The notes under the pieces were generated by a model, which was given only the letters and a program-made list of their open reading frames with translations, ran no database searches and was not told the origin of the DNA. A DNA stretch of 32,000 nt from an uncultured archaeon (GTDB taxonomy: Archaea; Iainarchaeota; Iainarchaeia; Iainarchaeales; JAAZKV01): the NCBI GenBank assembly GCA_964551375.1, contig CAZKBG010000001.1, forward strand, positions 807,329-839,328, in the 5' to 3' direction. The stretch's first letter is position 1. Each line of letters opens with the position of its first letter. Shown piece after piece: positions 379 to 31,600 of the stretch. The translations under genes were made by a program, and so were the position numbers.

Positions 379-515
379 CAACTAACTCAGCTCGCTTAAC
401 TTAACTTGCAAAAAGCCAAAAACAGCCAAGGCAGGAAGCAAATTTTGGTTTAAAGTAAGCTTTATTAAGAACAATTCACTTATTTTTCCAACAAGCTAGG
501 GCAATTTGTGGTTGG

Positions 516-3500
516 ATGGATTTATCTGCAATAACAGAACCTTTCAAGAATTTCTATTACAAACTTGAAGACAAATGGTACGACTTTCTTGACTATTTGA
601 GCAACTATGTTCCAGTATACAAAGTAATTGACCCAATTGACAGCGTAGTGCCAAGCTTTGTAGTATTTTTGCTCGTTATATTATTTTTGATAGTGCTTGG
701 AGCATACTTGATGCAGTTTGGCTCAAATTATGAAATTGAATTCCACACAGTTGATTCAAAAACAAGCGCTGATTTAAGCGATGTTACAATTTACGGCGAA
801 ATAAACGCGGCTAATTTTGACGAAGTCACTGATGCTGAAGGAATGGCAATAGTCCGTCTTGACAGCGGAAGCAAGAACCTCTTTGACCAGATAGGTGAAA
901 TGATTTTCGGGGCAGAACCAGTCGAGTTTTATGCAATTGTTTCAGCGGAAAAAGCAGGATACAACAGCATTGCAGATAAAGAAGTTGACATTTCCACAAA
1001 AAGAGCAACAATCTCAATGGTGAAAAAAGATAGCACAGGCCCAAATGACCCAATACATCTTGAAGACGATTATCCAAACAGCACAAGAGTGACTTTAGTT
1101 GATTCGCTTACTGATGATCCAATAGTTGATAATACCGGAAGCGCATATGTAAGATTTAACTGCGCGAACAAAGCAACAGGCGCAAAAACCGCAAAAGATA
1201 TTGATGACGGCGACCTTGACGGAGTATTTTTGCTTAATTCAGAAAAATGCCAGTTTGTGGTAACAAATGCTTACACTACTGGATACGAGTCTCCAACAAA
1301 CCTTCCAAGAACTCTTCCTACTGCAATAAGCGAGCACAAAATCTCGATGTCAAAAATAAGATCGGCTCCAGGCGGAACAATAAAAGTATATGCTTATGAA
1401 AAAAATTCAAGCCCTGAAAAACCAATCCCAAGAGTTCAGGTAACTTTACTTGACAAATACAATATCAATGCAGGAAGAAAATTGACTGACAACAGCGGAG
1501 TTGCGGTATTTACTGACATTGATTCTGGAACTTACACAATAATTGCGGCAAGCCCCGACAGCAACTATGCATCAATACGCGTTGATGAAAATGTTTCAAT
1601 CACAGCAGTTGCAGGCGCTACAAGAGAAAAGAAAGTATACCTTGAAAGAATTGACCCAACTTTAGTAAGATTTGTTAAAGTACAGCTAAAGGACTCAAAC
1701 ACTTTAAGCATAATAAGAGACGCAAAAGCATTTGTTCAGGAAATAAGAAGATCAGGAAGCACATACTCGCTTGCCCCTCTTGCAGGATGCTTAAATGAAT
1801 GCATAAGCGACTCAAACGGAATAATAAAAGTAACAGGATTAATGAACGACGACGCAAACAAAGTTTTAATGATTGTGAATAAACCAGGGTATGTGATAAA
1901 AATATTCAAACCAATTCTGGTAAAATCAATCGACCCTCCGACAGTAGAATATCTTGAAGAAATTAACTCAACAAATTCAGGACAGGCAAGAGTGACAGTG
2001 AAAAGCTCTTCAAATAACGCTTTAATCGCAGGGGCAAAATCATTTTTGTATGTAAATCTTCTGGACCCAAGAGTTCAAAGAGTGCAGATTTTTGAAGACG
2101 GAATTTTGACTAATTCCGAAGGAATATCCATTTTCAACGGACTTCCAATAGGCGCTGATAAAAACTATGTTGCGAGAGCCACATATGACACGCTTGACTC
2201 AGGATACTCTGCAGGAAAGCAGATTTACGCAGGACAGACAACTGATTTTAATTTATCAATCGCGCTTGACGCTGCATTCATAAGGGTTCTACTGCTTGAC
2301 GCAAACACAAGACAAGTGATACCAACAAGAGCGGACGCAAACGTTGTTTTGTTTCCTGCAAACCGCCCAATGGATGTGCTTCATTATGATTCACAAACAA
2401 CAAGATTCATCAGCGCAATGTATCCAAGAGCAATAAGCTTTGTAGTTGCCGCTGATTTGAATAATTACGCGGGAGCAGTGCTTGAAATCCCCGCAGGAAA
2501 CTTGTCAAACGGAATAAATGACTTTAATGTAAGACTTTACCCGCTAAGCATGCTTGACAAAAATGTAAATATTTTCTTCAACGGATTTTACAGAAACAAT
2601 TACGAACTAATAAGGGGGATAAAAGCAAATTCAATTGAAACCACAAACCAGCATGATGACGGAACTTTCGGATATTATGAACAGATAGATGTTGTCGCAG
2701 GAAAAGATTTGAATTATTCAGATTTGTTTGGGGCGATAAGATTTAGCGACGCAATGAAAATAGTTGGAATTCCATTTAAAACAGGAATAAATTATCTTGA
2801 ATCAGGGTATTATTTATGCAGTCCTCCGATACAAAACCCGGTTAATTCTGATGAATTTTACATACAAACCGACTCAAACTGCCAGCGAAACGAGACAAAT
2901 CCAAACGGGGCAATGGCTGGAATACACTGGCAGCAGGGAATTTCGGCTCAAAGAGGATTAAAGAAAACAGTTTACACAATGGCTGTTAAAACAATTTTTG
3001 GAGATGTTAACGAAGGCACAATATTAAACCTAAAAGGATTTGGAAAAGAAAAACACAACACGCTTTCTTCAGAAGACAGATTTGACATAAGCTACCAATT
3101 AGGAACTCCAATAGGTCCAACAGACAACAATGCTGCAATTTCAATAATTGCTACCATGAACAGCGGGGCAATTACAAGAGATCCTGAAGGATTTATATAT
3201 AATCCAGCAAAAAAAACTTATCTTGAAGTTTCCCCAACTCAAACAAAAATAACCGCTTATCAAAGAAATAATCTTGGGATAAAAGTCAGAAATGACTCAA
3301 ATGTTCCAATTACAAACATAAAACTTTATGTTTACACATACAGCGGAATTATGGAAGAGTTTAATTACGTTCCAAGCGGAGCAATAAGGCTTGATAATGA
3401 AACAACAGGACTAAGGTCAAGATACGTTGCCACAATTTTAAATTTAAACAAAAACGCAATTTCCTCGCCGCAAACAGTTCCATTGTATTCATTAACTCCA

Positions 3501-5990
3501 AATTCAACAACAAAAGTAATCATAGTCGCAGCAGTTGAGGATAAAAATTATTTATTTGTTGCAGACACAAAAACAGTAGCGCTGAATTTGGTTCTTTCAG
3601 GCGCAAGATTCATGGCTGATGTTCAGGACCAGAACTTTGACGCAGAAGTATTCGCAGGAAACGGCAGAACTCCAGTTGCGCTTGAATCAGTTGACTTAAA
3701 AGCAGTGAGAAACTGCTCTAATACGCAAAACAGAGTTGTTGATTACAATAACTTACTTGCAGATATTGACCCAGTTAGGACAAATTACTTTGAAAGAACA
3801 ATACCTGGAATTTACAGAAAAGACGCTGACTGCCTTGTAGTGCACGTAGTTGCAGAAAGCCCTGATTATGATGATTTGACAAAAACAATATATGCTGGAT
3901 ATTCAGTTCTTCAGGACTTGACATTATCATGCGTTGACGCTTCATTCCCCGACGCATTTGGAGACAGCGACCTTGAAGAAATGACTGCTGAATGGGACAG
4001 CGAATTTGATGTAAGAGTAATAAACACCTGCGCAGGACCAATGCAGATAAGCGTTGAATCAGGATTAAACCAAGTATCAAATACATGCAATAATCTTGCC
4101 TCGCTTGCAGAATGCAACGTTAGATTAAAAGCGAGGAATAAATCATACAGCCCTACGGTAAAATACAGCGATATTTTGGGAGTTTTCCCTATTTACATTA
4201 AAGCGCGCGACGCGCAGACATCCAAAAAACTTGCGCTTGCGGATAAATTAAAAATTCACATCTCAAATTCTGCAGAATGCTTCCAAATAATACAAAAAGA
4301 TATTTACGAAGCAAATCCCCAGCCGTTTAAAGGAAGCATGATAATTAACAACAACTGCCAGAACACGCTTGTGGACGATTATTATGTTCCAAAAGAAGTG
4401 CTAAGCCTTGCGGGTGCGGATGTTAACACATTTGCTCCAAAATACCAGTCAGTTGATTTCAATTATGATTTAATAGTAAGGGGCGGAGGATACGATTACG
4501 GCACAACTCCAGTAACACGAATTGCAAATGTATTCTTCCCAGAACAGGGAGTAAATGGAAAACCAGTAATCGGAACAGGACCAAACGGCTACAATAAATA
4601 CGGACAGTTCAGATTCTCAATACCTAATTACAGCGGACAAACTGACTTGTTTTATTTCAGATGGTCGGATAGAAATGACGGCTCGAACAGATACGGCGCA
4701 GTGCTTGACAATACTATTACAGTAAATTATAGAGACGGAACACATCAGACTGTTCAAACAAATGTAGCGACTTTTGATATTAACACTCTTCCAATCGCAT
4801 GCAAATGCTACGGAACAAGATACAGCGGAGCTTCATGCTCTCAGGCAGTTCACACTGATGTAATATTTGGAAACGGAACATTTTCAGGAGAACACTGCAT
4901 GCTAATTTCAAACGATTTAGTAGTCGGTGTGCCTGATGGAGAAGGAATTGGTGGATTAATGTATGTCTACGTTCCAAGAGGAAATGTTGAATCATTTGAT
5001 TTTAATATTTACGGAAACCCAAATGCAACAAACTTGCGAATAAAGGGATACTCTTGGATAAGGTATACTGAAAATTTAACGACTATTACTCCAAACGGAA
5101 GCTCAAGCGCAGCTGTATTAAACAGCGGGGGATTCAGAATATATCCAGTTGAAGGATACACTTACATACTCAAAAACCTTGCAGACACTTCACTAAGCAA
5201 ACAGCTTGAAGAAAGAATACAACTCTGCAAAAAAGTTCAATCAGCAGACGCATGGTATTTCTTAGACCAGCTGTATTGGACAAAAAGATCAATAATGAAC
5301 TTTGATGAAGCAAAAGCATTCTGCTCGACTTCAGCAGGAGCAGGCATTGATTTGACAGGAACAACTCCAAGACTTGCAACCTCGGCTGATGTGAGCGCGC
5401 CAAGAAACCAATTCATAAGCGGCGATCCAAAACTATTATGGAACGCAAGCGACGGACAGGGCGGATGGGTAAACGGCGAAGGGGTAAAAGGATTTTGGCT
5501 TGACAACTGCCAAGGCGAATGGTGCTTCCCGTTAAGAAAACTTGACACAGCATATGCATACGTTGACAATAATGTTCATGCCGACATTGCAGAATATGTT
5601 CCTTTATGCACAGTAGAACTTGACAACACCCGCGAAGTTACATCAGCAATGTGCACAGCTCTTGGAATAACCTGCAACAAAGCATCAGGACAATGCGTAT
5701 TCCCAGATCCATCATCATTCACTTCATTTAACAGCAACGCTTACTTAAAAACTCCAAATCCTTTGGTTGAAGTTGTTATAAAATCAGTTCGCGCAAACGG
5801 AAGAGCGCTTGATCCTTCAACAGTAGTTGTGTGGCTTGAAGGAGGATTATTAAAAGCAAGATTTATCGGAGAGAATTACTCGCCATATGACGACCAGACA
5901 ATTGAATCGGATATTATTGCAAAAGATGTAAAGGGCGACCAGTACGGAACATTAACTGTTATAGATTATGTAAATAATCCGGAGGATTAG
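516..5990 (+). CDS. Giant (1824 aa) signal-anchored envelope protein with carboxypeptidase-regulatory-like beta-sandwich repeats and a Cys-bearing C-terminal half
   Basis: Uninterrupted 5475-nt ORF whose ATG is preceded by GTGG. The first ~46 aa have no signal peptide and are followed by one hydrophobic span, SFVVFLLVILFLIVLGAYLM (nt 654-713). Residues ~72-650 hold repeated modules with signatures such as TDAEGMAIVRL, TDNSGVAVFTDIDSGTYTI, SDSNGIIKVTGL and TNSEGISIFNGLP. I recognised no enzyme motif. Confidence 0.85.
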   Translation: MDLSAITEPFKNFYYKLEDKWYDFLDYLSNYVPVYKVIDPIDSVVPSFVVFLLVILFLIVLGAYLMQFGSNYEIEFHTVDSKTSADLSDVTIYGEINAANFDEVTDAEGMAIVRLDSGSKNLFDQIGEMIFGAEPVEFYAIVSAEKAGYNSIADKEVDISTKRATISMVKKDSTGPNDPIHLEDDYPNSTRVTLVDSLTDDPIVDNTGSAYVRFNCANKATGAKTAKDIDDGDLDGVFLLNSEKCQFVVTNAYTTGYESPTNLPRTLPTAISEHKISMSKIRSAPGGTIKVYAYEKNSSPEKPIPRVQVTLLDKYNINAGRKLTDNSGVAVFTDIDSGTYTIIAASPDSNYASIRVDENVSITAVAGATREKKVYLERIDPTLVRFVKVQLKDSNTLSIIRDAKAFVQEIRRSGSTYSLAPLAGCLNECISDSNGIIKVTGLMNDDANKVLMIVNKPGYVIKIFKPILVKSIDPPTVEYLEEINSTNSGQARVTVKSSSNNALIAGAKSFLYVNLLDPRVQRVQIFEDGILTNSEGISIFNGLPIGADKNYVARATYDTLDSGYSAGKQIYAGQTTDFNLSIALDAAFIRVLLLDANTRQVIPTRADANVVLFPANRPMDVLHYDSQTTRFISAMYPRAISFVVAADLNNYAGAVLEIPAGNLSNGINDFNVRLYPLSMLDKNVNIFFNGFYRNNYELIRGIKANSIETTNQHDDGTFGYYEQIDVVAGKDLNYSDLFGAIRFSDAMKIVGIPFKTGINYLESGYYLCSPPIQNPVNSDEFYIQTDSNCQRNETNPNGAMAGIHWQQGISAQRGLKKTVYTMAVKTIFGDVNEGTILNLKGFGKEKHNTLSSEDRFDISYQLGTPIGPTDNNAAISIIATMNSGAITRDPEGFIYNPAKKTYLEVSPTQTKITAYQRNNLGIKVRNDSNVPITNIKLYVYTYSGIMEEFNYVPSGAIRLDNETTGLRSRYVATILNLNKNAISSPQTVPLYSLTPNSTTKVIIVAAVEDKNYLFVADTKTVALNLVLSGARFMADVQDQNFDAEVFAGNGRTPVALESVDLKAVRNCSNTQNRVVDYNNLLADIDPVRTNYFERTIPGIYRKDADCLVVHVVAESPDYDDLTKTIYAGYSVLQDLTLSCVDASFPDAFGDSDLEEMTAEWDSEFDVRVINTCAGPMQISVESGLNQVSNTCNNLASLAECNVRLKARNKSYSPTVKYSDILGVFPIYIKARDAQTSKKLALADKLKIHISNSAECFQIIQKDIYEANPQPFKGSMIINNNCQNTLVDDYYVPKEVLSLAGADVNTFAPKYQSVDFNYDLIVRGGGYDYGTTPVTRIANVFFPEQGVNGKPVIGTGPNGYNKYGQFRFSIPNYSGQTDLFYFRWSDRNDGSNRYGAVLDNTITVNYRDGTHQTVQTNVATFDINTLPIACKCYGTRYSGASCSQAVHTDVIFGNGTFSGEHCMLISNDLVVGVPDGEGIGGLMYVYVPRGNVESFDFNIYGNPNATNLRIKGYSWIRYTENLTTITPNGSSSAAVLNSGGFRIYPVEGYTYILKNLADTSLSKQLEERIQLCKKVQSADAWYFLDQLYWTKRSIMNFDEAKAFCSTSAGAGIDLTGTTPRLATSADVSAPRNQFISGDPKLLWNASDGQGGWVNGEGVKGFWLDNCQGEWCFPLRKLDTAYAYVDNNVHADIAEYVPLCTVELDNTREVTSAMCTALGITCNKASGQCVFPDPSSFTSFNSNAYLKTPNPLVEVVIKSVRANGRALDPSTVVVWLEGGLLKARFIGENYSPYDDQTIESDIIAKDVKGDQYGTLTVIDYVNNPED

Positions 5991-6056
5991 AAATTTGAGA
6001 TTATTAAGTGATTTTTACTAAAGCAATTAATTAAAAGTAAAAATGTGGTTGTAATT

Positions 6057-7733
6057 ATGATGAAAAAAATAATAGTGCTGCTGTTTTTAGTAATGGCAGT
6101 ATCCTTGGCATTTTCTGCAGAAATTCCCGCAAGCGAAGTAGCGTGGAATGCTGGGCTTATATTAAAACTTGACAAACAAACATTTGCCCAAAACGAGCCA
6201 ATCACAGGCGAAATAACTATTGAAAACCGCGAAAATGCTCCTTTAGTAGGCGCAAAAGTTGTTTTGCAAATAGTTCAAGGAGAATATTTTTACCCTTCGC
6301 AGTACAATAATGCAGAAATTATACTTCACGAACAAGTAATTGATTTTAACTGGATGGTGCAGGGAAACAAAAAAACAATGAAATTCACAATGCCTGCCCA
6401 AAAATCAGGGGATTATAGAGTAGATGCATATGCATGGGCAGTTAAATCAAAAATGATTGGAGCAAGCAATATTTTATTAAATCCAATTTCATCAGTCTTT
6501 AGCATTCCTGGAGAAAAATATAAACGCCCGACAATATTTAGAGAAATTACTGTGTTCAACGGAACTGTTGGTCCTGTCGGATTTCCTGTTAAATCCCAAA
6601 CAGCAATAACAGGAGATGTTGTTCTTTCTGGGCTTTCAAATTTAGGATTTTCAAACCTTAAAGTCGGCGCAGTAATATGCGAATGGGCTACAGCTTTTTG
6701 CGACACTCAAAATGAAGTAAAAGCAGATTTTGGAGCTCCTGACTTAGGCGGCACAGCATACGCAAGATTAAATCTCACAGCTCCAAAAATTCCTTCAGCA
6801 TACGAAATACTATTCAAAGTATATTCAGGGGATGAAGTAATAGGAATGTACAAAAATAGGGCAATTGTAAGCGGACCAACTTCAAAAGCAAGAAAAATCC
6901 TAATAGAAGGGCTTGACAAAAGAAGCTACTCAATAAAGACTTATTTAGTAGGGACTCCAGACCACTTCGCAATGGAAAGCTTCACTGATTTTGACTTGAA
7001 AGTAAATGCTTACAAAGACGGAAACACAGTATTTTCAAAAACCGAAAGAATTCCTGTAATAAATTACGCTGATATATTCACAAAAACATATCCTGTCGGG
7101 AGAATATTCTTTGACAGTGTCTGCGTTACTGTTGAAAAAGACTCAACAGTGTTTGACAAAGAATGCTTTGACGCTCCGATGAAAGAAATACAGGCTGAAT
7201 ATGATTCGCTTTATCCAACCCCAGTAAGCGTTGAATGGAAATATTATCCGGAAAACGACGCGCTTGAAATAATGCTTGCAAAAGACGTGATTAACTCAAA
7301 AATAAGATTATTCTCAACCGACCAGATGTATATTGAAGAAATGGTGAATGAAACAGGATTTTACACAAAGACAATAACCGCTCCAAAAGAAAATATGACG
7401 CTTGCAGTTGATGATATTGACGCAAAACAACAGCAGGTATTCCAAATAAATTTAGGCCCTGCGGGAGACGAATTTGGAAACACTATTGTTGAAACCGGCG
7501 TAAAGCCAATCAGCGAATGCAAAGGACAAATCTGCTCAACAGGACTTGTGTGCAAATCGCAGCCAATTGCTTCAATAGAAGGCGAATGCTGCATGACTCA
7601 ATGCATAAGCGCAGGCGAAGTAACTCCTGAAGAAGGAAAAGAAATAATTCCATTAATAGTTCTAATTGCAATAATACTTGCAATAATTGCATTATTTGTT
7701 TTATACAAAGCGGCAAAGGTGGCGAGAAAATGA
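6057..7733 (+). CDS. Secreted envelope protein with a C-terminal Cys-rich stalk and membrane anchor (~558 aa)
   Basis: ATG ATG lies at 6057/6060, and the GTG at 6045 in the track is an alternative start. Sec-type signal peptide MMKKIIVLLFLVMAVSLAFSA. The C-terminus reads CKGQICSTGLVCKSQPIASIEGECCMTQC, then PEEG, a long hydrophobic span and the basic tail KAAKVARK. The stop codon overlaps the next gene's ATG. Confidence 0.85.
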   Translation: MMKKIIVLLFLVMAVSLAFSAEIPASEVAWNAGLILKLDKQTFAQNEPITGEITIENRENAPLVGAKVVLQIVQGEYFYPSQYNNAEIILHEQVIDFNWMVQGNKKTMKFTMPAQKSGDYRVDAYAWAVKSKMIGASNILLNPISSVFSIPGEKYKRPTIFREITVFNGTVGPVGFPVKSQTAITGDVVLSGLSNLGFSNLKVGAVICEWATAFCDTQNEVKADFGAPDLGGTAYARLNLTAPKIPSAYEILFKVYSGDEVIGMYKNRAIVSGPTSKARKILIEGLDKRSYSIKTYLVGTPDHFAMESFTDFDLKVNAYKDGNTVFSKTERIPVINYADIFTKTYPVGRIFFDSVCVTVEKDSTVFDKECFDAPMKEIQAEYDSLYPTPVSVEWKYYPENDALEIMLAKDVINSKIRLFSTDQMYIEEMVNETGFYTKTITAPKENMTLAVDDIDAKQQQVFQINLGPAGDEFGNTIVETGVKPISECKGQICSTGLVCKSQPIASIEGECCMTQCISAGEVTPEEGKEIIPLIVLIAIILAIIALFVLYKAAKVARK

Positions 7734-10264
7734 ATTCAAAATTATTAATCACCATTGCTTTAGCAATATGCTTACTCATTCCAACTGTATTTGCAGGAAC
7801 AACCCACTGCTGGAGACAAGAAATTGACAGGGGAGTTGGGGCAAATGAATTCATGATAGGGGACGCAAGCTTTGACGCAATATCAGGCGTGTGGATAGCA
7901 ACAATCGGAACAAGAATGGACTTAAACGGATTCGGCTCATTCCAGCTAAATTGCGATGACGGAGCAAGCGGAAGCGGAAAAAACTATGTTGATGTGCTTG
8001 ACGCAACAGACGGAAATATTGTTGCAACAAATGTGACAGGAAATTTAGGCCCTGCGGCAATATCGGGCGGATACTGCATGTATAACGGAAGCATTTGCTA
8101 CAAATACAAAGGCGCATTTTATCCAAGACATGGAGCATGCGATGCAGGAACCGATCCGGCAGTTGGAGCTGGAGAACTAGACGCAATGTCAATAGTGTTT
8201 GATGAAAACAGCGTAGGATATCATGAATATGTTGTGAGATACGGCGCGCTTTCACCAGCAACTGCGGACCCTTACTCGCCAAACTTGTGGATGCAGACAA
8301 TAAAAGTAATAAAAGTATTTGTCGGAATGCCAGGGCTATTAACATTCAACCAGCAGAGATTAAAAAGAATGGGCTATTATGACAAAGACGGCACTGCTGA
8401 AATTGATGTGATATTCACAGTTTTAAATAAATCCCCCTTCACTGCAAGAGTAACTAACTACAATATGGTGTGCAACGGAGAAGTAACTTGCGAACTTCCT
8501 CAAGTGGGCGGGCACCCAGAATATGTTGGATACACAATCAAAACAGACCAGCCGCTTGTAATTCCAGCAAAAGTAAAATTTAATAAAAGAACTACGCTTC
8601 CTGAAGATTTCTTCGCCTCGCTTGAAATGACTTACTCAATTGACGGGCTTGCAAAATGCGACCTTGCAACAGGCGCAGCAACATGCCAGACACGCTCTGC
8701 AGCAATGGAATACAAAATAGGGCTTTTAGACAAGCAGGATTTCCAGATAAATATACTTGGCTCTGAATCGGAAAGAGATTGCGTTGATGCTGAAGGAAAC
8801 CCTGGAAGAACAGGGCCAGAACTTGCGCCAAGAGTGAACTTATCCTTCAATCCTTCCACAGTAAGCTATGATTGTTCAAATATTAATCCAATAACAGGCG
8901 CAGATAATCCAAATTGGGTATACTGTTCTCAAAAAGAATTCTTAGTTCAGTTAAGCAGAAGAATCGGAGAAGGATGGATAAGACTTGGGAATATCAAAAT
9001 TTATGAAAAAGACGGCAACGCAGGCGCAGCGGATGCATTAAGAGTTGAAAATGGAAGAATACTAACATTCAATGCTTACTTAAGAGCGCAGGACATCTCA
9101 CGAGCTCAGGTATCGGCAAATGCTTCTCAATTTGGAACAGGATTATTAACTTCAGTAAATCTTCCAGGAACAGTATTTGATTCAGGCGCAACAGCGGTCG
9201 CAAGAATGAAAAACCTTGTTAATTCAATAAATTTCAAACAATCAATCGGCGGAGTAAGAGTGGATGAAACAATGCTTGAACCCGGAATGTACCAAGTTTC
9301 AATTGACATGAATGACATTGACCTTTCAAGCGCGGCAACTTCAACTTTATTCAAACCTGACGGCTCAATAAACCCTGCCGCAAACATAAAAGTAACTCTT
9401 GAAAAACAAACTCCTCCGGCATTTGACTGGTTCTTCTATTACGATGAAGATTCAGCATCAAGATTTGCGGGAAGCATATACGGAGGAGGCTCAACAGCAA
9501 CTACATTTAACAAAACAAATATACAAGACAGAGGGTTAATTGTTAATTTCACAAAATCAGGCTCATCAATGAGCGGGACTTTATACAAAACAATTGCAAT
9601 TCCTTTAATTGCAAGAATTGCAGACACAAACCTCCCAAGCGTTCCTCCTGCAAAGTTTGACGCACAGGGAAGCGGACTTGGACAGAGCAACTTTACTTAC
9701 TGGACAGGATTTGCAAGCTCACTTCCAGCAGGACCTCAAAGAGGATGCGAAACAATCAGCCTTACTCCTCCGCTTGGAAATAAAGCGCTGCCTTATAGAA
9801 TTGCAGATATAAATGCGGGATTAAACAATATTCAAACTAATATTCATAATTATACAATAGAAGAATTAGTTAACGTTGCGCCAAACAGCGTGATGTATCT
9901 TGAAACAGTTCTATATATGCCAGTGGGCTCGGGATTATGGATACAAGCGCCATTCAAAATATCAACGCTAAACGGAACAACAACAAGCACTCCTCAAAAT
10001 CCGCAGACATTAAATATTTCTCCAAGCGACCAAGCATGGGCAAGCGTGTTTAAGATTGACGGAACAAGCACAAACAACACGCTTGAAAATATATTTGACA
10101 AAATCGCAGACGGAAATGTGTGCGTAATAAGAGACACTTCACAAAGCGCGACAAACTGGAGACTATTCTGGAACCAAACTGCTGTACTTAACGCTCTAAA
10201 TCCAGTTAGAACTTCAATAAGAGATGCTAATTTATGCGCTGCAAGACAGCAATTATCAAGCTAA
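7730..10264 (+). CDS. Secreted 844-aa protein of unknown function, third gene of the envelope operon
   Basis: The ATG at 7730 overlaps the upstream TGA (ATGA at 7730-7733), which indicates translational coupling. Signal peptide MNSKLLITIALAICLLIPTVFA. No other hydrophobic span and no recognisable domain. Confidence 0.85.
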   Translation: MNSKLLITIALAICLLIPTVFAGTTHCWRQEIDRGVGANEFMIGDASFDAISGVWIATIGTRMDLNGFGSFQLNCDDGASGSGKNYVDVLDATDGNIVATNVTGNLGPAAISGGYCMYNGSICYKYKGAFYPRHGACDAGTDPAVGAGELDAMSIVFDENSVGYHEYVVRYGALSPATADPYSPNLWMQTIKVIKVFVGMPGLLTFNQQRLKRMGYYDKDGTAEIDVIFTVLNKSPFTARVTNYNMVCNGEVTCELPQVGGHPEYVGYTIKTDQPLVIPAKVKFNKRTTLPEDFFASLEMTYSIDGLAKCDLATGAATCQTRSAAMEYKIGLLDKQDFQINILGSESERDCVDAEGNPGRTGPELAPRVNLSFNPSTVSYDCSNINPITGADNPNWVYCSQKEFLVQLSRRIGEGWIRLGNIKIYEKDGNAGAADALRVENGRILTFNAYLRAQDISRAQVSANASQFGTGLLTSVNLPGTVFDSGATAVARMKNLVNSINFKQSIGGVRVDETMLEPGMYQVSIDMNDIDLSSAATSTLFKPDGSINPAANIKVTLEKQTPPAFDWFFYYDEDSASRFAGSIYGGGSTATTFNKTNIQDRGLIVNFTKSGSSMSGTLYKTIAIPLIARIADTNLPSVPPAKFDAQGSGLGQSNFTYWTGFASSLPAGPQRGCETISLTPPLGNKALPYRIADINAGLNNIQTNIHNYTIEELVNVAPNSVMYLETVLYMPVGSGLWIQAPFKISTLNGTTTSTPQNPQTLNISPSDQAWASVFKIDGTSTNNTLENIFDKIADGNVCVIRDTSQSATNWRLFWNQTAVLNALNPVRTSIRDANLCAARQQLSS

Positions 10265-10351
10265 AAATCAAGCGCTAAAAACGCCAAAAAAGTACATGAC
10301 TTAACGTGTATTTTTTATAAAAAAAGCTTAATGTAGAAATTTATTTGCTTG

Positions 10352-11146
10352 TTAAGGCAATTTCATCTTAAAATATCCTGCGAGAATCAGAATTACTGCA
10401 AGCGCCATTAATAAAATCAAAAAACCTTTGCTTTCAAAAAAAGAAACGCTTTTTTTCACAATCCCTTTTGAGTTTTTAGCGTCTTTAGAGCCTGAAGAAA
10501 CCGATGCAGCGCCCATCATTATTGCTTCTTTTGAATATTTCAGCCAATTTGAAGGCGTCTTAAGCTCATTAATTGTTTCTCTTGTTACTTCAAGATAGCC
10601 CTTCTCTCTATTTGGCACACCGCTAATACCCTCAATCTTTCCATCAATGGCATTAATTGTAAGCGCGTACTCTTTTCTTCCCGCAATAACAGTTGTCATG
10701 TAAAGAGGGAGAAGAAATTTCTTCGCGCTTGAAACAACAACATTGCTTTTTGGAACATTAAAATACTCCGCGGTTTTTAATTGCAAAATCTCATCCTGTT
10801 CGCGCTTTTCGATATTGCACCACTTTTCATCATACTCGCCTTTAGGAATATCCGAGTGCGATTTTTTCCAGCTGTGCTTAATCAGTTCGACATAATCTTC
10901 CCTCACAACAATTTTGTGCCCATTCACAGCCAAAATTCCGTGGATAGTTTTTTTCACAGTCCGCTTTGAATCAATAGCGTCTTCGACATAGTAGTGATAA
11001 TTAAATAAAAAATAAGGCACTAAGAAGAGCTTCAAAGGCTTGAGCTCATATTCGTGCCAATTTCGTTTTTCAAGTTCTTTCTTAATTAAATCCGTCGCGC
11101 CAGAGGCGGTGATGTTGATAGGCAATAGCGGATTGCCCAAGTACAA
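10352..11146 (-). CDS. Tail-anchored (C-terminal TM) protein of unknown function, coupled to sepF
   Basis: The only start candidates near the 5' end are TTG (11146 or 11140), 5 nt after the sepF stop. There is no signal peptide. A single C-terminal hydrophobic span, FLILLMALAVILILAGYF, is followed by KMKLP. Two similar beta-rich modules are present (IHGILAVNGHKIVV and ALTINAIDGKIEGI). Confidence 0.7.
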   Translation of the reverse strand: MYLGNPLLPINITASGATDLIKKELEKRNWHEYELKPLKLFLVPYFLFNYHYYVEDAIDSKRTVKKTIHGILAVNGHKIVVREDYVELIKHSWKKSHSDIPKGEYDEKWCNIEKREQDEILQLKTAEYFNVPKSNVVVSSAKKFLLPLYMTTVIAGRKEYALTINAIDGKIEGISGVPNREKGYLEVTRETINELKTPSNWLKYSKEAIMMGAASVSSGSKDAKNSKGIVKKSVSFFESKGFLILLMALAVILILAGYFKMKLP

Positions 11147-13069: not shown

Positions 13070-14866
13070 ATGCAAAGCTTGAGAAAAAAATCAACTGCCC
13101 AAGGAACAATAGAATACTTAGTAATTATGGCAATAGTAATAGTAATTGCGCTTGTGCTTGTGGGAATATTAAGCGGATTTTTTGGAGGAAGCGGAGAATC
13201 AACTGGGTTTAATGCGGTTGATGTCGGAAACAAAACTAACTCAGGAGTGGCAATACTTGAAACAGTAGCTGATTCAGAAGGAGATTCGCTTGTAAGACTC
13301 ACTAATAATTCAGGGGACACAATTACAATAAACAAAGTGACTACCACAGGCGGAGAAAACAGCTTTAATGAAACACTTCCCGCAAACACTGAAAGAACAT
13401 TTTCTTTAAACGACTTTGATTTAAGCTGCCCATGCGACGGACAAAGTGTCAAAAAAATCTGTGAGTTTACAATTCAATACACTAACCAATACGGGCTTGA
13501 AAAAAGCCAAAATGTGCGAGCAGTAGTTGACTGCGTTAATGACGCCCGCGCAGGAGGAAATACTCCTGTTGCTGGACTTGGAAGCGGAACTCTATCTGAT
13601 CCTTGGATAATAAATTCCTGTGCTGAACTTCAAGACATGAATAACCATTTAGACGGCAACTATGCGCTTGGCGGTAATATTAACTGCGCAGATTCGCTTA
13701 CATGGAACAATGGAGCAGGATTCAGTCCAATAGGATTTACAACAACAAACGGAGCAGGATGTCCGCCAGATTCAGCGCCATTTTGGGACTTATGCCTAAC
13801 TCCTGACACACAATACTTTAACGGAACACTTGACGGAAAAGGATTTACAATAAGCAATTTTTACATAAACCGCCTTGATGAAAATTTTGTAGGACTATTC
13901 AAAGTGCTTGGAGATACTGCGAGAATAACAAATCTAAATTTTACAGGAGCAAATGTAACAGGCGGAAGCGAAGTCGGAACAATTGCGGGAATGAATTACA
14001 GCGGGTATGCTGAAAGAGTAATTGTAAACGGAGATATTAACGGCGGAGCGTATGTCGGAGGATTATTCGGAAGCGCAGCAGTGAATTCAGACACAAACAA
14101 AAGCGCATCAATTTATCTCTCTGGAACAAGCGGAAAAGTCAACGGCGGGTATAGAGTCGGATGCCTTGTAGGAAACGGACACTCTTTCACAATTGATAAA
14201 TCATATTCAACCTGTGATGTAAACGCGGTTGTGGAAGCAGGAGGGCTAGTTGGAACAGTGTGGTATAATACAGTGATTACACGAAGCTATGCGACAGGAA
14301 ATGCAACTGCAGACCAAACATTAGCAGGAGGACTTGCCTCAGCATCAAATGGGACAATCAGAGACTGCTATGCGACAGGAAATGTAATAGCACTATCAGG
14401 AGCTGGCGGATTAATGGGCGGAGGAGGAGCACTAGTAATGAATAGTTATGCTACAGGCACAGTAACTTCACCACGCGCAACAGGAGGGCTAATTGGAGAT
14501 ACAATCGGGGCGATAGTAAATTCATTTGCAACAGGGCGTGTTACGGGAGATGCAAATGTTGGCGGAGTAGCAGGAGTAGTATGGGATGCATGGTGTCAAT
14601 ATGATGAAAATGTAAACTGGTCAACAACTAATACAACAATGCCAGACGCATATGGCGCATGGTATGCAAATCACGCGGGCGGATGCGGAATAAATAATTA
14701 CACACACGCGGTTGGGGTAAATAATCCTGACGGCAATTATGAATACTGGTATAATCCAACAAATACTCCTTTGCAATATTGGGGCGGATTTGGCTCGGAT
14801 AAGAACTGGAATATTTGCTCAGGGCAGGGCTTTCCTTGGCTGTCATGGGAAAACAGAACCTGCTGA
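13070..14866 (+). CDS. Class III signal peptide (archaeal type IV pilin-like) protein fused to a GLUG-repeat beta-helix adhesin domain, 598 aa
   Basis: The N-terminus MQSLRKKSTAQGTIEYLVIMAIVIVIALVLVGIL matches the class III signal pattern (basic n-region, then Q-x-[ST]-x-E-x-x-x-hydrophobic, then a hydrophobic helix). Residues ~170-270, GSGTLSDPWIINSCAELQDMNNHLDGNYAL...FNGTLDGKGFTISNF, form the usual lead-in to GLUG repeats. Residues 273-510 carry about 8-9 GLUG-type repeats. The C-terminus is an aromatic/Asn-rich cap ending GQGFPWLSWE. Confidence 0.85.
   Translation: MQSLRKKSTAQGTIEYLVIMAIVIVIALVLVGILSGFFGGSGESTGFNAVDVGNKTNSGVAILETVADSEGDSLVRLTNNSGDTITINKVTTTGGENSFNETLPANTERTFSLNDFDLSCPCDGQSVKKICEFTIQYTNQYGLEKSQNVRAVVDCVNDARAGGNTPVAGLGSGTLSDPWIINSCAELQDMNNHLDGNYALGGNINCADSLTWNNGAGFSPIGFTTTNGAGCPPDSAPFWDLCLTPDTQYFNGTLDGKGFTISNFYINRLDENFVGLFKVLGDTARITNLNFTGANVTGGSEVGTIAGMNYSGYAERVIVNGDINGGAYVGGLFGSAAVNSDTNKSASIYLSGTSGKVNGGYRVGCLVGNGHSFTIDKSYSTCDVNAVVEAGGLVGTVWYNTVITRSYATGNATADQTLAGGLASASNGTIRDCYATGNVIALSGAGGLMGGGGALVMNSYATGTVTSPRATGGLIGDTIGAIVNSFATGRVTGDANVGGVAGVVWDAWCQYDENVNWSTTNTTMPDAYGAWYANHAGGCGINNYTHAVGVNNPDGNYEYWYNPTNTPLQYWGGFGSDKNWNICSGQGFPWLSWENRTC
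13886..14599 (+). repeat. GLUG-type repeats (about 8-9 units of ~26-30 aa) within the pilin-like adhesin
   Basis: Recurrent units include VGGLFGSAAV..., AGGLVGTVWYNTVITRSYATGNATADQT, LAGGLASASNGTIRDCYATGNVIALSG, AGGLMGGGGALVMNSYATGTVTSPRA, TGGLIGDTIGAIVNSFATGRVTGDAN and VGGVAGV. Confidence 0.8.
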
Positions 14867-24763: not shown

Positions 24764-25312
24764 TTAAATTAATTCTCTAAACTCTTCAACTTTTTCCATT
24801 CTCTTTGTTCCATAATACCAGATGATTAGAACAATACCGCTCATAATAAACCAAGTAATTTCATGAACTAATTCAGCGTTAAAACCGATTTTGGCTGCTA
24901 AGAGAACAAGCATAACTCTTGGAATATTAACTAAGAGAATAATTATTGTCCCAAGAAGGAAAAGGGCAAGCTTTTTCTCTAACTTCGGCCTTCTTAATGA
25001 GAAAATAATTGCTCCCAAAATACTTGCGCTTACTAAGCCAGTGCATAGGTTAGAAACAACAAAAGAGTTTTCCCCAATAGTAATTTCAGTTCCATTTCTC
25101 TCTAAATTCAAAGCGCTTGCGCTAATATAGGCAATTGAGTTGTTTAAAGGCGCAAGAGGAGCAAACTCAATTAAAATTTGGGCTACTGCAAAGATTACAA
25201 AGAACTTGATTAAAAAGACAAGTATTTTTTTTGAGTGAGAAGTCGTGCTGCTATTATTACTTTTTTTAATTTTTTGATGAATTTTACTATGGCTCCGCTT
25301 TGTTTTTGCCAT
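24764..25312 (-). CDS. Miniature exosortase/archaeosortase-family membrane protein (182 aa)
   Basis: Polytopic membrane protein carrying, in the family's order, Cys90 in SNLCTGL (codon at 25043-25045), Arg132 in VNIPRV and His150 in ELVHE. Its GGTGAT Shine-Dalgarno motif overlaps the carS stop codon. Confidence 0.65.
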   Translation of the reverse strand: MAKTKRSHSKIHQKIKKSNNSSTTSHSKKILVFLIKFFVIFAVAQILIEFAPLAPLNNSIAYISASALNLERNGTEITIGENSFVVSNLCTGLVSASILGAIIFSLRRPKLEKKLALFLLGTIIILLVNIPRVMLVLLAAKIGFNAELVHEITWFIMSGIVLIIWYYGTKRMEKVEEFRELI

Positions 25313-28627: not shown

Positions 28628-31600
28628 TTAATTCCTTCTTTTTGATAGTAATCCAACAACAATTGCGAGAGCTGCAATTATTACAATTATGCCGTTATCA
28701 GGAACGCTTTTAGTAGGAGTTTCCTGATTGTAATTAATGAACTCAACTTTCTCGCAAACAGTGCAGTTTGGAGCATCAGGCTTAATATTAGCAGTAACTC
28801 TAATCACAGTTCCGTCAACAAAAGGAACAAGAGGAATTAAAGTTGAAGTAATTGGATTAACGTTGCAATCAACTTTTGAATTAGCAGGAGAACTTACTAA
28901 TAACTGAACAGGAATTGCTTCTGAAAAGTTCTCAAACTTCATAGTAGATTTTGCGTACTTTGTGCAAACAAGAGTAACTACAACATTTCCATCAACTATT
29001 TTTGCATCAAGAGAAACAATTGAATTAACATCAGAAGACACCGGCGGATAGCCTTTCTTAAAACAAGCTTTTAGAATTCCATTAGTTGAGCAAGGATAAG
29101 AAGTTTGGTACAAATTAGGGTAAGTAATTCCAGTCGCAAGGCAATTCATATCAAGTTCAGGACAAATCATGTCGCTGACATTAACAAGCACATCATCAGA
29201 GCGAACTTGATAAGCGTCATCATTCACAGTAAGTCTTAATGCTTTGATTCCATTAGCATCAATTCCAAGGCAATAAACTTTTGGAGTTAAAGTAGTTGAA
29301 TCAAATATAGCGCAAGTTGAAGTAGGACTTGGGCTTGGAGTAACAAAGCTCCAATTAATGACAAAAGGAGCAAGTCCGCCGTTAATTATTCCGATTAATG
29401 AAATATTTTGGTCTACAAATCCTGCCGCATCAGGCCCTGCTGAAATTGAAAACGGAGCAATTGTGGGATAAGTTACTACAATATTTACATCATCATTTGC
29501 AAAAGTTCTGCCGTCATTTACAGTAAATCTTACAGTCGCAGTTTTTGGTCCGCTCATGGCTGCGTCAATATCGCACCTAAATGTCGGTGTGAGAGTAGTT
29601 GCATTAGTAAGAGTGCACTTAGGATTAGTTGTGTTAACATCTTTTGTTATTACCCAGTTGTAAGTATAAATTCCTCTTCCTCCAAGCGCGCTTCCGTTTA
29701 AGACTTCATTATATCTTGTCGCAATTGACTTATCAGGTCCTGCGTTAGCTGATAAGTTAATTCTTATATTTGAAGAACAAACCGCGCTTTCACCAGCAAC
29801 ATTTCCAGTAATTAAAACAGAAATATTTCCGTCATTTTTGTGATAAGGGCATCTCATCAAAAATGTTGTTCCAACTGGAGTAGTGTTTCTAAATTCAGCA
29901 TCAATTGTAGTTAGTGAATAACATTTGGAATTAATGTTTGAAGAAGCAACTGGAGCTCCTGCAAAGTAAGAAGCTGTAACATTAAAGTCAATATTTGAGT
30001 CATATGCTGAAGTAATAGTTCCAGCAGGAAGAACTGTGCAGGCAGGACCAAGAACCAAAGTTAAAGTAAAAGCAGTCCAAGCAGATTTTAAGTGAGTGAA
30101 ATTATCTTCAGCCCTTACTCTGAAAGTTTTTGCTCCCGCAGTAGTCCAAGTATAAGTTCCCGTTCCAATAGTTGCGCTTGGAATATAATTAAGCGGAACA
30201 TTCTCATCGGAAATTCCGTCATTGTTCCAATCAACCTGATACTTGATTAAATCCCCTTCAGGATCAACCGAATTAAAATCAAAAGACTGCATACTATTTA
30301 CGCTTGCAGTTCCAGGAGTAGTTCTAACAACAGTAGGCGCGCTGGGAGCAAGATTTGGGTTTAAATTAATTGCGCGGGCAGTGCAAGCTTTTGTTTGAGA
30401 AGAACTTGCAATAGTAGCTCCAACGCTTAAACTTTGAACAGCTGAAACAGTATACGCGCACTGCGCAGTGCACAAACCTGAATAAGGAAGAGTGTTTTGA
30501 TTAACGCAAGTTAAAGGAGCAGTTGTAGCATTACCGCACGAAACCGAATCAACACCCGCAAGAGATGGATCCGCCTGAAAATCATTAAAATCAACAGTTA
30601 TTGTTGAATTCCCGCTAACTCTTCTTGGATTTGGGTTAATTTGAATAACTCTGCAGGTTGGAACAGGAATTGTTCTAACAGTTGCAGTATCTGATGCAGT
30701 TTCGCCAAGCGAATCAGTCACAGTAACTGAAAGAGTGGTGTCAGTGTAAATATTTGAACAACTTATAGTTGGAGTTGCTGTGTTTTGATTTGTTAAAGTA
30801 CAATTTCCAGCATTATTTGTAATAGCCCAATTCCAAGAAGTAATTGTTCCTCCGCCAGCTCTAGTTGCAGTCAAAGTAGTTGGAGTTCCAATAGTGTGAG
30901 TATAAGGTCCCCCCGCATCAACAGAAAGATTGGCAACAATGTTAATCGGACAATTAGCCCAAAGCGCAGAGTATTGTCCTGACTGGGATTGGGACATTAC
31001 TTTAATAGTTTTTGCTCCGACAGTAGTCCAGCTGTGCTGAGCATTAACAGTTGTTCCGCTCGCAACATAACCAGAAGCAGGAAACCATTCTTCAACAGTA
31101 TTTCCGCCATTCCAATTTACCCCATATCTTAAATTTTCATTATCAGTCCCAGTAAAACTAAATGCATAATTATTATTTGCAAGTCCTATTGAAGTGCAGC
31201 TTAAAGTTGGAGTATTGGGATATGGATTTGGCGCAGTAGGATTACAGCAAATTTCACCAGTAGTATAATCACAAATACCAAAAAGGTTTGGAGTTCCAGG
31301 ATAGCATAAATAATCTCCTAGCCCTCCAACCCCATTTACCCAATAAGGATTAATGAAAGGAGTTACAGGAGTGATTTGAGTAGGGAAACCCATTGTGCAA
31401 GTTCCTCCATAAGTAAAGCAAGTCAACTGCTGACCGCAGCAAGATTTTCCTGGAGCGCAAGTTCCGCTTCCAGTGGCATATTGAGGCAATCCCATATTGC
31501 AGGGCATCATATTGCAAGTCTGGCTCATATTTTGAGTGCATGTGTATGTTGCGCCGCAGCATGACTGTCCTATCCCGCATGTTCCGCTGCCATCAGCTCT

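What the first reader, a model, noticed from the sequence alone, without database searches (positions are those of the whole stretch)
516..10264. Three-gene operon for a giant envelope assembly with three different membrane topologies
Three co-directional genes encode three distinct topologies. The first is an 1824-aa type II signal-anchored protein: a cytoplasmic ~46-aa N-terminus, one TM, at least 4-5 carboxypeptidase-regulatory-like beta-sandwich repeats, and then ~1100 residues with about 30 cysteines and no domain I recognise. The second is a ~558-aa protein with a Sec signal peptide, a Cys-rich stalk and a C-terminal anchor. The third is an 844-aa soluble secreted protein. Genes 2 and 3 overlap by ATGA (7730-7733), and genes 1 and 2 are only ~66 nt apart with no obvious terminator. 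Two opposite membrane anchors plus a soluble partner, made in coupled fashion, suggest a heteromeric surface structure rather than three independent proteins. It could be an S-layer-like lattice or a cell-cell attachment apparatus. None of the three resembles a characterised S-layer, pilus or secretion component that I can identify by eye.
Basis: partly seen in the sequence, partly recalled or inferred. Interest (0 to 1): 0.7.

Follow-up and report, generated by a model that had tools for sequence, protein, structure and literature searches.

The report
Split giant surface protein operon, Iainarchaeota
Three tightly packed genes of a tiny uncultured archaeon (Iainarchaeota, DPANN) encode parts of one large membrane-anchored cell-surface structure; two of the parts are a single giant protein in related genomes, and the family, with its conserved intracellular N-terminal tag, matches no curated family in the libraries searched.

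Summary
g1 (516-5990, 1824 aa) has one N-terminal anchor. g2 (6057-7733, 558 aa) has a signal peptide and a C-terminal anchor. g3 (7730-10264, 844 aa) has a signal peptide only. g2 and g3 overlap by ATGA.

The window is from an Iainarchaeota (Diapherotrites) genome. The order g1-g2-g3 recurs in about 22 independent loci, twice as a tandem duplicate of the whole triplet. g2 was never found alone. The 4-nt g2/g3 overlap is nearly universal, and a BRE/TATA box is conserved upstream of g1.

In other genomes a g1-like N-terminal part and a g3-like C-terminal part form one 2200-2850 aa protein, with exact colinearity. g1 and g3 are therefore halves of a split giant protein.

The most conserved part of g1 is its 45-aa cytoplasmic tail plus the membrane helix. 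This module starts 823 protein clusters, and Pfam, NCBIfam and PDB sequences have no match to it.

g1 also carries a C-type-lectin-like domain. g2 models as a stalk of beta-sandwich domains. No S-layer, fusogen or secretion family matches.

Best reading: a heteromeric, membrane-tethered coat or adhesion complex. Whether it forms a lattice or fibres is unresolved.

The parts
459..468 (+). BRE/TATA-type promoter element GCTTTATTAA, about 50 nt upstream of the g1 ATG
   Evidence: It is the only match in the window. The same AAAGCTTTATTAA-like element lies 40-55 nt upstream of g1 in about 24 of 26 orthologous loci.
516..5990 (+). g1: 1824-aa (201 kDa, pI 4.9) giant type II signal-anchored surface protein
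   Evidence: Full-length homologues of 1470-1985 aa share 27-39% identity.
516..725 (+). g1 N-terminal module: 46-aa acidic cytoplasmic tail (motif KNFYYxLEDKWYxLLD...VPVYKVIDPIDxVxPSF) plus a membrane helix (about aa 47-69)
   Evidence: It is the most conserved block of g1 (52% vs 20-40% elsewhere), with 11 invariant residues. The profile finds 823 clusters, nearly all (146 of the 150 listed) within the first 35 residues of the protein. There is no Pfam, NCBIfam or PDB match.
729..2585 (+). g1 aa 72-690: stalk of about six beta-sandwich-sized modules
   Evidence: PF24025 at aa 286-359 is above cut-off and PF13620 is below it. hhalign gives s3~s5 95% and s4~s5 54%. The homologous region in P0041-43 meets PF13620, Big_1 and SpaA.
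2817..5696 (+). g1 aa 768-1727: Cys-bearing distal region (22 Cys, 9 invariant) with no family match
5238..5615 (+). g1 aa ~1575-1700: C-type-lectin-like domain, a variable insert
   Evidence: The profile of 11 homologues hits CLEC10A at E 3.4e-4, and 23 of the 25 PDB hits are C-type lectin-like domains. The region is absent from the g1 homologues of about 1600-1670 aa.
5823..5987 (+). g1 C-terminal conserved motif (WLEGGLLKARFIGENY...YGTLTVIDYV)
   Evidence: It is the second most conserved block. In fused relatives it lies mid-protein, exactly one g3 N-terminal-region length before the g3-like part.
5991..6056 (+). 66-nt g1-g2 spacer with a TATA-like ATTATTAA (6000-6007) and an SD-like GTGGTTG before the ATG
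   Evidence: In orthologues the spacer ranges from -4 to 107 nt, with one outlier of 245 nt.
6057..7733 (+). g2: 558-aa protein with a signal peptide (aa 1-20), 4-5 beta-sandwich domains (aa 30-465), a 6-Cys knot (aa 488-516), an invariant Pro532, a membrane helix (aa 533-557) and a basic tail
   Evidence: AF2 model pLDDT 82.8. Foldseek gives only generic MG/Ig-chain matches with TM 0.15-0.28.
7718..7733 (+). Coupling junction: SD-like GGTGG (7718-7722) and the ATGA overlap of the g2 stop and g3 start (7730-7733)
   Evidence: A -4 overlap occurs in 17 of 27 loci and most others are within a few nt.
7730..10264 (+). g3: 844-aa secreted protein with a signal peptide (aa 1-22), N-terminal beta-sandwich domains (aa 25-332) and a conserved mixed alpha/beta C-terminal region (aa 335-844; motifs WVYCSQKEF, DWFFYYD, FTYWTGFAS, VCV...LFWNQ)
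   Evidence: AF2 model pLDDT 73.5. Fold searches return only Ig-like matches.
8732..10261 (+). g3 aa 335-844: region homologous to the C-terminus of single-chain giants of 2170-2890 aa that carry the g1-type N-terminal module
   Evidence: blastp E 2e-8 to 2e-3. hmmsearch E 1e-12 to 1e-29 in 18 proteins and in many loci.
10311..10316 (.). T6 run in the 87-nt convergent gap between g3 and the next (minus-strand) gene; possible archaeal terminator
   Evidence: Seen in the sequence only and not tested.

Best explanation
The three genes are one conserved expression unit of Iainarchaeota. They encode a heteromeric, membrane-tethered cell-surface complex that is a split version of a single giant surface protein.

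g1. g1 is inserted N-in by an uncleaved signal anchor. Its 45-aa cytoplasmic tail is a conserved family tag. A stalk of beta-sandwich modules projects a disulfide-bearing distal region that includes a C-type-lectin-like domain.

g3. g3 corresponds to the C-terminal ~840 residues of the single-chain relatives. It has gained its own signal peptide. After secretion it most likely re-associates with the conserved C-terminal end of g1 to complete the distal head.

g2. g2 occurs only in the split triplet form and is translationally coupled to g3. It is a second stalk anchored by a C-terminal helix, and it probably holds or spaces the g1/g3 head relative to the membrane.

Function. The complex is the organism's main outward-facing coat or binding structure. 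The lectin-like domain suggests binding to glycans on particles or other cells.

Shown: gene structure, topology signals, conserved order and coupling, g1+g3 fusion in relatives, positional conservation, domain types.

Inferred: physical association, which surfaces interact, the role of g2, ligand binding, and abundance.
For: Gene order and coupling.
- The order g1-g2-g3 occurs in about 22 independent loci.
- g2 was never found outside the triplet.
- Whole-triplet tandem duplications occur in L004 and L023.
- The g2/g3 ATGA overlap is conserved, and g1-g2 spacers are 12 nt or less in half of the loci.
- A BRE/TATA element is conserved upstream of g1.

Fusion evidence.
- Single ORFs of 2200-2850 aa hold a g1-like N-terminal part and a g3-like C-terminal part.
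- The gap between the g1 C-motif and the g3-like part matches expectation: 344/347, 340/349 and 333/335 residues.
- Two-gene splits without g2 also exist.

Genomic position.
- The slot between the Hel308-like helicase and unk264/SepF/Orc1/PolD is always occupied by a family member, whatever its architecture.
- Neighbouring genes are 64-84% identical where the triplet is 37-40% identical. This is typical of exposed surface proteins.

Domains and topology.
- Topology signals are present as described.
- Beta-sandwich domains are supported.
- The C-type-lectin-like profile match is.
- Conserved cysteines fit extracellular disulfides.
Against: - There are no expression, proteomic or imaging data, and no multimer prediction was possible.
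- g1, g2 and g3 show no detectable similarity to any characterised lattice or adhesin.
- The lectin match is modest (E 3.4e-4). It fails Pfam Lectin_C, and the region is absent from many orthologues.
- The g3 model is of only moderate confidence (pLDDT 73.5, pTM 0.49), and its C-terminal fold found no match.
- A TATA-like element in the g1-g2 spacer could allow separate expression of g2-g3.
- The acidic N-terminal tail departs from the positive-inside rule, so the N-in topology rests mainly on the extracellular character of the rest of the protein.
Confidence: 0.62

Rival explanations
1. It is the S-layer of Iainarchaeota. g1/g3 form a two-dimensional paracrystalline canopy and g2 is the membrane stalk, working like SlaA/SlaB of Sulfolobales.
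For: - The core-genome slot is occupied in every genome examined, next to Orc1/PolD.
- A strong-looking promoter is conserved.
- The products are acidic and rich in Asn/Thr/Ser.
- g2 has the SlaB-like layout of signal peptide, beta-sandwiches and a C-terminal helix.
- Archaeal S-layer proteins are often chains of Ig-like domains and lack cross-lineage sequence similarity (general knowledge; S-layer proteins share few primary-structure traits, per bioRxiv 10.1101/2021.04.28.441871).
Against: - No S-layer family, fold or sorting-signal match was found.
- Cys content is 1.4-1.9%, whereas S-layer proteins are typically sulfur-poor.
- I know of no described S-layer protein with an N-terminal anchor bearing a conserved cytoplasmic tail.
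- Many paralogues sit in tandem arrays per genome, which looks more like an adhesin repertoire.
- g2 has no coiled coil.
Confidence: 0.3
2. It is a repertoire-type adhesin or host-contact fibre. Sparse long stalks display variable binding heads for attachment to other cells or substrates, as proposed for giant surface proteins of other DPANN archaea.
For: - The stalk domain types are those of bacterial adhesins (SdrD_B, SpaA, Big_1, CarboxypepD_reg).
- A lectin-like domain sits near the distal end as a variable insert.
- Divergence is fast and paralogue arrays are large.
- Giant proteins of DPANN archaea appear in papers alongside surface terms (the papers were listed, not read).
Against: - Diapherotrites are considered metabolically rich and possibly free-living (bioRxiv 10.1101/728089).
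- The triplet occupies a fixed core position rather than a variable island.
- No known adhesin anchor or secretion signal is present.
Confidence: 0.35
3. The three are independent surface proteins that merely share a neighbourhood because related genomes are colinear.
For: - The flanking genes are also syntenic.
- No similarity was detected among g1, g2 and g3.
Against: - The triplet is duplicated as a unit.
- The triplet persists where flanks differ (for example L032 and L023).
- g1 and g3 are fused in relatives with exact colinearity.
- The g2/g3 start-stop overlap is conserved.
Confidence: 0.05

Closest known systems
SlaA/SlaB two-component S-layer of Sulfolobales
   Same: An operon encodes a large outward-facing subunit plus a smaller stalk subunit with a signal peptide, beta-sandwich domains and a C-terminal membrane helix. 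The products are acidic with potential glycosylation sites, and they evolve fast.
   Different: - No sequence or fold match was found.
- Here the large subunit is itself membrane-anchored, at its N-terminus, with a conserved cytoplasmic tail.
- There is a third subunit.
- The stalk has no coiled coil.
- The products are Cys-rich.
Giant repeat adhesins (bacterial SdrD/SpaA/Big_1/RTX-type; DPANN giant surface proteins such as nanohaloarchaeal SPEARE)
   Same: These are very large proteins with a long extender of Ig-like or prealbumin-like beta-sandwich modules and a distal ligand-binding domain (here lectin-like). They occur as multi-copy families that diverge fast.
   Different: - The anchor is a type II signal anchor with a conserved 45-aa cytoplasmic module, not LPXTG, T1SS or a C-terminal anchor.
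- No protease or nuclease domains are present.
- The protein is split into separately secreted chains, with an added C-anchored partner.
Extended or specialised signal peptides of giant surface proteins (ESPR of autotransporters/TPS; YSIRK-G/S of Gram-positive cocci)
   Same: A conserved sequence block precedes the hydrophobic core and is found specifically on very large surface proteins.
   Different: - There is no sequence relation.
- The block here is acidic and about 45 aa long.
- The following helix looks uncleaved.
- Any targeting role is untested.
Alpha-2-macroglobulin/complement MG-domain chains (best fold matches of g2)
   Same: Consecutive MG/fibronectin-like beta-sandwich domains (Foldseek E 1e-9 to 1e-11).
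   Different: TM-scores are only 0.15-0.28. There is no thioester CGEQ motif, bait region or TED domain, and the protein is 558 aa with a membrane anchor.

Membership tests
Curated archaeal S-layer families (Pfam S_layer_N/S_layer_C, DUF1608; NCBIfam TIGR01564/TIGR01567; PGF-CTERM) | A significant profile match to a curated S-layer or sorting-signal model | tested here: not met
   Pfam and NCBIfam scans of g1, g2 and g3 at E<=1 list no such family.
SlaA/SlaB-type S-layer | Sequence or fold similarity to solved S-layer subunits | tested here: not met
   Profile searches of PDB sequences give no S-layer hit. Foldseek lists only SbsB, at rank 17 with TM 0.11, as a generic Ig match.
SlaA/SlaB-type S-layer | Anchor subunit with a signal peptide, beta-sandwich domains, a coiled-coil stalk and a C-terminal membrane helix | tested here: inconclusive
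   g2 has the signal peptide, the beta-sandwiches and the C-terminal helix. It has no long helix other than the membrane helix, and a 6-Cys knot instead.
SlaA/SlaB-type S-layer | Assembly into a 2D paracrystalline lattice covering the cell | not testable with these tools
   This needs cryo-ET or in vitro assembly.
CarboxypepD_reg / Ig-like beta-sandwich repeat proteins (PF13620, PF24025) | Score at or above the curated gathering threshold | tested here: met
   PF24025 scores 30.5 vs 27.1 bits at g1 aa 286-359. PF13620 scores 25.5 vs 32.3, below threshold, in g1, but 67-91 bits in the homologous stalk of P0041-43.
C-type lectin-like domain | Profile similarity to CTLDs with the conserved Cys/Trp framework | tested here: inconclusive
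   The profile of 11 homologues hits CLEC10A at E 3.4e-4, and 23 of the 25 hits are C-type lectin-like domains. C17, C49, C144 and the GFW motif are invariant. Pfam Lectin_C is not matched.
C-type lectin-like domain | Ca2+/carbohydrate-binding motif (EPN/QPD, WND) | not tested
   No reliable structure-based alignment of the long-loop region was available.
Alpha-2-macroglobulin/complement | Thioester CGEQ motif, bait region and TED domain | tested here: not met
   None of the 10 Cys of g2 lies in a CGEQ context. Fold matches cover MG domains only.
Fusexin / class II fusogen (Fsx1, HAP2) | Three-domain class II fusion fold in the ectodomain | tested here: not met
   No fusogen appears among the top Foldseek matches of g2 against PDB or of g3 against PDB and BFVD.
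Archaeosortase substrates | C-terminal tripartite signal: a recognised motif, a membrane helix and a basic cluster | tested here: inconclusive
   g2 has the invariant Pro532, the helix and a basic tail, and an archaeosortase-family gene lies at 24764-25312. No curated CTERM model matches g2, and the other C-anchored protein in the window shares no motif with it.
Iainarchaeal N-module giant surface proteins (family defined here) | The ~65-aa module (acidic tail with YYxLEDKWYxxLD...IPVYKVIDPID, then a helix) at the very N-terminus of a protein longer than 1000 aa with beta-sandwich domains | tested here: met
   g1 is a founding member. The profile finds 823 clusters (415 at E<=1e-10), at the N-terminus in 146 of the 150 listed. 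Of the 77 genome loci, nearly all are titled Iainarchaeum or Diapherotrites.

The most novel reading that the evidence does not exclude
The conserved 45-aa cytoplasmic tail is not a passive anchor. It is a docking or targeting signal that couples giant surface proteins to a cytoplasmic partner. That partner could be a dedicated insertion factor, or the division/cytoskeletal machinery (SepF and a SepF-linked tail-anchored protein are encoded next door). The tail would then be an archaeal counterpart of septum-directing YSIRK signals or of integrin-like outside-in links. Splitting the giant into g1/g2/g3 would create a modular, exchangeable head on a conserved transmembrane base.
Probability: 0.2. 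Interest if true: 0.8.

Novelty: new variant of a known kind. Interest (0 to 1): 0.55.

Why it matters
Nothing is known about the envelope of Iainarchaeota. The phylum is uncultured, and it sits at the boundary between free-living and symbiotic DPANN archaea.

This locus provides a concrete, positionally conserved candidate for the main surface structure of the phylum. It is also a natural experiment: fused, two-part and three-part versions exist, which shows which pieces must interact. In addition, the intracellular N-terminal module is undescribed and shared by hundreds of giant proteins.

These points yield testable predictions for metaproteomics, cryo-ET, multimer modelling and pull-downs. 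They would help decide how such cells attach to partners or particles.

Tried and rejected
- Fusexin or viral-glycoprotein idea for g2/g3 (signal peptide, Cys-rich region, C-terminal helix). Foldseek against PDB and BFVD returned only generic Ig/MG chains, so it was rejected.
- Alpha-2-macroglobulin membership for g2. There is no thioester motif and TM-scores are low, so it was rejected.
- Homology among g1, g2 and g3. hhalign probabilities were 0.6-1.5%, so none was found.
- g2 as a diverged piece of the fused giants. The g2 HMM gave no hit outside triplets.
- Enzymatic role for the g3 C-terminal region. It has no family hit and no invariant His or catalytic-type constellation.
- Archaeosortase sorting of g2. 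It remains unsupported.
- Sigma-70-type promoter and terminator scans. They found fewer promoter-like sites than shuffled sequence and only slightly more terminator-like sites, and they do not apply to archaea.
- Replication-origin repeats near Orc1. None was convincing.
- Literature searches found no description of this family.

Full report
**1. What is in the sequence**

The window has three co-directional ORFs at the stated coordinates:
- g1 at 516-5990 (1824 aa).
- g2 at 6045-7733. The ATG at 6057 gives 558 aa, the product also called in public assemblies.
- g3 at 7730-10264 (844 aa).

The g2 stop and the g3 start overlap as ATGA at 7730-7733, preceded by an SD-like GGTGG. The g1-g2 spacer is 66 nt, with no terminator-like site on the coding strand.

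Hydropathy shows the following:
- g1 has one hydrophobic stretch, about aa 47-69.
- g2 has one at each end.
- g3 has only an N-terminal one.

g2 and g3 have ordinary cleavage contexts (AFS|AE and VFA|GT). g1 has none after its helix, so it is an uncleaved signal anchor. The products are acidic (pI 4.9-5.2) and contain 26, 10 and 16 Cys.

**2. Organism and neighbourhood**

The neighbours identify an archaeon:
- PolD DP1/DP2, Orc1/Cdc6, SepF and NOG1-type GTPase.
- SecDF, CDP-archaeol synthase and ribosomal proteins S3Ae/S15.
- A small archaeosortase-family protein.

Named homologues and related contigs are almost all Candidatus Iainarchaeum / Diapherotrites, that is phylum Iainarchaeota of the DPANN group.

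**3. Family searches on the three proteins**

Pfam gives g1 a single above-threshold hit, PF24025 (Ig-like) at aa 286-359. Related prealbumin-like families fall below threshold there (CarboxypepD_reg, SdrD_B, SpaA, bMG3). g2 and g3 have no significant hit, and NCBIfam has none for any of them. Profile searches of all PDB sequences find nothing for g2 and g3.

For g1, a profile of aa 1555-1705 built from 11 homologues returns C-type lectin-like domains almost exclusively. CLEC10A scores E 3.4e-4, followed by CLEC4F, CLEC2D, selectins and asialoglycoprotein receptors. The Cys/Trp framework is invariant. Pfam Lectin_C is not matched, so I call the domain lectin-like, not a member of that family. 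The domain is a variable insert, missing from the shorter orthologues.

Internal profile comparison supports repeated beta-sandwich modules in the stalk: aa 286-378 vs 484-582 at 95%, and 380-470 at 54%.

**4. Structure predictions**

g2 models well (mean pLDDT 82.8). It has a signal peptide and four to five beta-sandwich domains. A flexible linker follows, then a small four-strand 6-Cys knot and a C-terminal membrane helix. Foldseek against PDB finds only chains of macroglobulin/Ig-like domains (complement C5, bacterial alpha-2-macroglobulin, CD109, mastigoneme), with TM-scores of 0.15-0.28. That makes g2 a generic stalk.

g3 models moderately (pLDDT 73.5, pTM 0.49). N-terminal beta-sandwich domains are followed by a mixed alpha/beta region. 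The PDB and viral libraries return only Ig-like matches, such as integrin alpha thigh/calf.

**5. Conservation of the triplet**

g2 has 19 homologues (34-71% identity, all 546-581 aa) and g3 has 14. Contexts of three divergent g2 homologues all show the same layout: a Hel308-like helicase, then g1, g2, g3, then a ~270-aa protein and SepF on the opposite strand, then Orc1/Cdc6 and PolD. One contig carries two complete triplets in tandem.

I then scanned one genome per species with the g1 N-terminal profile and searched the ORFs with HMMs of the three proteins. The results were:
- About 22 independent triplet loci, always in the same order and on the same strand.
- A second tandem duplication, in L023.
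- No g2 homologue outside a triplet.

The g2/g3 overlap is -4 nt in 17 of 27 cases. The g1-g2 spacer is 12 nt or less in half of the loci.

An AAAGCTTTATTAA-like BRE/TATA element lies 40-55 nt upstream of g1 in about 24 of 26 loci. In the window it is at 459-468, the only match. One promoter-driven unit is therefore the simplest reading. A TATA-like ATTATTAA at 6000-6007 leaves room for an internal promoter here.

**6. g1 and g3 are two halves of one protein**

Three distant g1 hits (P0041-43, 2171-2797 aa) share g1's N-terminus and end with a region similar to g3. Among the 150 best carriers of the N-terminal module, 18 proteins of 2170-2890 aa combine several features:
- A g1-like first ~870 residues.
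- Fragments of the g1 middle.
- In several, the g1 C-terminal motif located mid-protein.
- A g3-like C-terminal ~500 residues (E 1e-12 to 1e-29).

Where both landmarks are detected, the distance between the g1 C-terminal motif and the start of the g3-like match equals what direct concatenation predicts. The values are 344 vs 347, 340 vs 349 and 333 vs 335 residues.

Genomes also contain two-gene versions, g1-like followed by g3-like without g2. So fused, two-part and three-part forms of one design coexist. g2 is specific to the three-part form. I could not determine whether fission or fusion came first.

**7. The N-terminal module**

The 46-aa cytoplasmic tail and the membrane helix form the most conserved block of g1. 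It is 52% identical to homologues, against 20-40% elsewhere, with 11 invariant positions.

A 65-position profile finds 823 representative clusters at E<=0.001, 415 of them at E<=1e-10. In 146 of the 150 listed the match begins within the first 35 residues of the protein. Full-length carriers are 1200-3250 aa. No Pfam, NCBIfam or PDB sequence matches it.

The tail is acidic, which is unusual for an N-in anchor. The N-in assignment rests on the clearly extracellular character of the rest of the protein: conserved Cys, Ig-like and lectin-like domains. Such conservation on the cytoplasmic side argues for a specific interaction, either targeting/insertion or docking. Which one applies is unknown.

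**8. A fixed genomic slot and fast evolution**

The position just downstream of the Hel308-like helicase and upstream of the unk264/SepF/Orc1/PolD block holds a family member in every locus where it could be examined. It is usually the triplet. In L021, L038, L057, L074, L077 and L078 it is a single or fused giant.

Flanking proteins are 64-84% identical where the triplet proteins are 37-40% identical. Many genomes carry further paralogues in tandem arrays of two or three giants.

**9. Interpretation**

The data support a heteromeric surface complex. g1 supplies the membrane base, the stalk and part of the head. g3 is the detached distal part, which must re-associate after secretion. g2 is a second, C-anchored stalk made together with g3.

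The choice between a lattice-forming coat and sparse adhesive fibres cannot be settled from sequence.

In favour of a coat:
- The fixed core position.
- The conserved promoter.
- The SlaB-like layout of g2.

In favour of an adhesin repertoire:
- The paralogue arrays.
- The variable lectin-like insert.
- Adhesin-type stalk domains.
- The Cys content.

Diapherotrites are regarded as comparatively self-sufficient DPANN, so host attachment is not a given.

I found no description of this family in the searchable literature.

**10. Verdict**

It is a new, lineage-specific variant of a known kind: a giant archaeal surface protein or two-component envelope system. Its undescribed cytoplasmic N-terminal module is the most intriguing element.

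Noticed in passing
window 10352-11146 (-): A 264-aa protein with a C-terminal membrane helix (tail-anchored) and no Pfam or NCBIfam match. It sits directly next to SepF in every related locus, including rearranged ones (L057, L074, L077). It is therefore a candidate SepF-associated membrane partner in cell division.
   Followed up: partly
window 13070-14866 (+): A 598-aa protein that starts with a class III (type IV pilin-like) signal peptide (KSTAQG|TIEYLVIMAIV) and carries GLUG-motif repeats. Weak homologues lie near the triplet in some loci.
   Followed up: no
window 24764-25312 (-): A small (182 aa) exosortase/archaeosortase-family protein. It passes the TIGR04178 signature (36 vs 23 bits) and is nearest to archaeosortase D and pacearchaeosortase. 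It lies next to CDP-archaeol synthase. No cognate sorting motif was identified.
   Followed up: partly
window 28628-31984 (-): A 1118-aa protein with N-terminal Cys-rich repeats (..SCCG..YTC..), a PKD-like domain and a C-terminal helix plus KRRN tail. It has no signal peptide at the called start, so the start may be miscalled or the gene disrupted.
   Followed up: no
L013, L019, L022, L026, L030 (AR10 complete genome), L049, L061, L064, L065: Tandem arrays of two or three giant genes of 2200-2900 aa, all carrying the same N-terminal module. Several have no detectable g3-like end.
   Followed up: partly
L051, L060, L076: Contigs from MAGs titled Chloroflexi/Chloroflexota or Thaumarchaeota carry the family. 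L051 also has Iainarchaeal-type neighbours (Hel308, unk264, SepF). These contigs are probably mis-binned.
   Followed up: no
window 508-515 and 6045-6051: The same SD-like GTGGTTG lies just upstream of the g1 and g2 start codons, and similar GTGGTT/GTGATT strings precede g1 in many orthologues.
   Followed up: no
L011 9426-14198: The g1 orthologue is broken into three consecutive ORFs (916, 528 and 199 aa). This is a frameshifted gene, a pseudogene or an assembly error.
   Followed up: no
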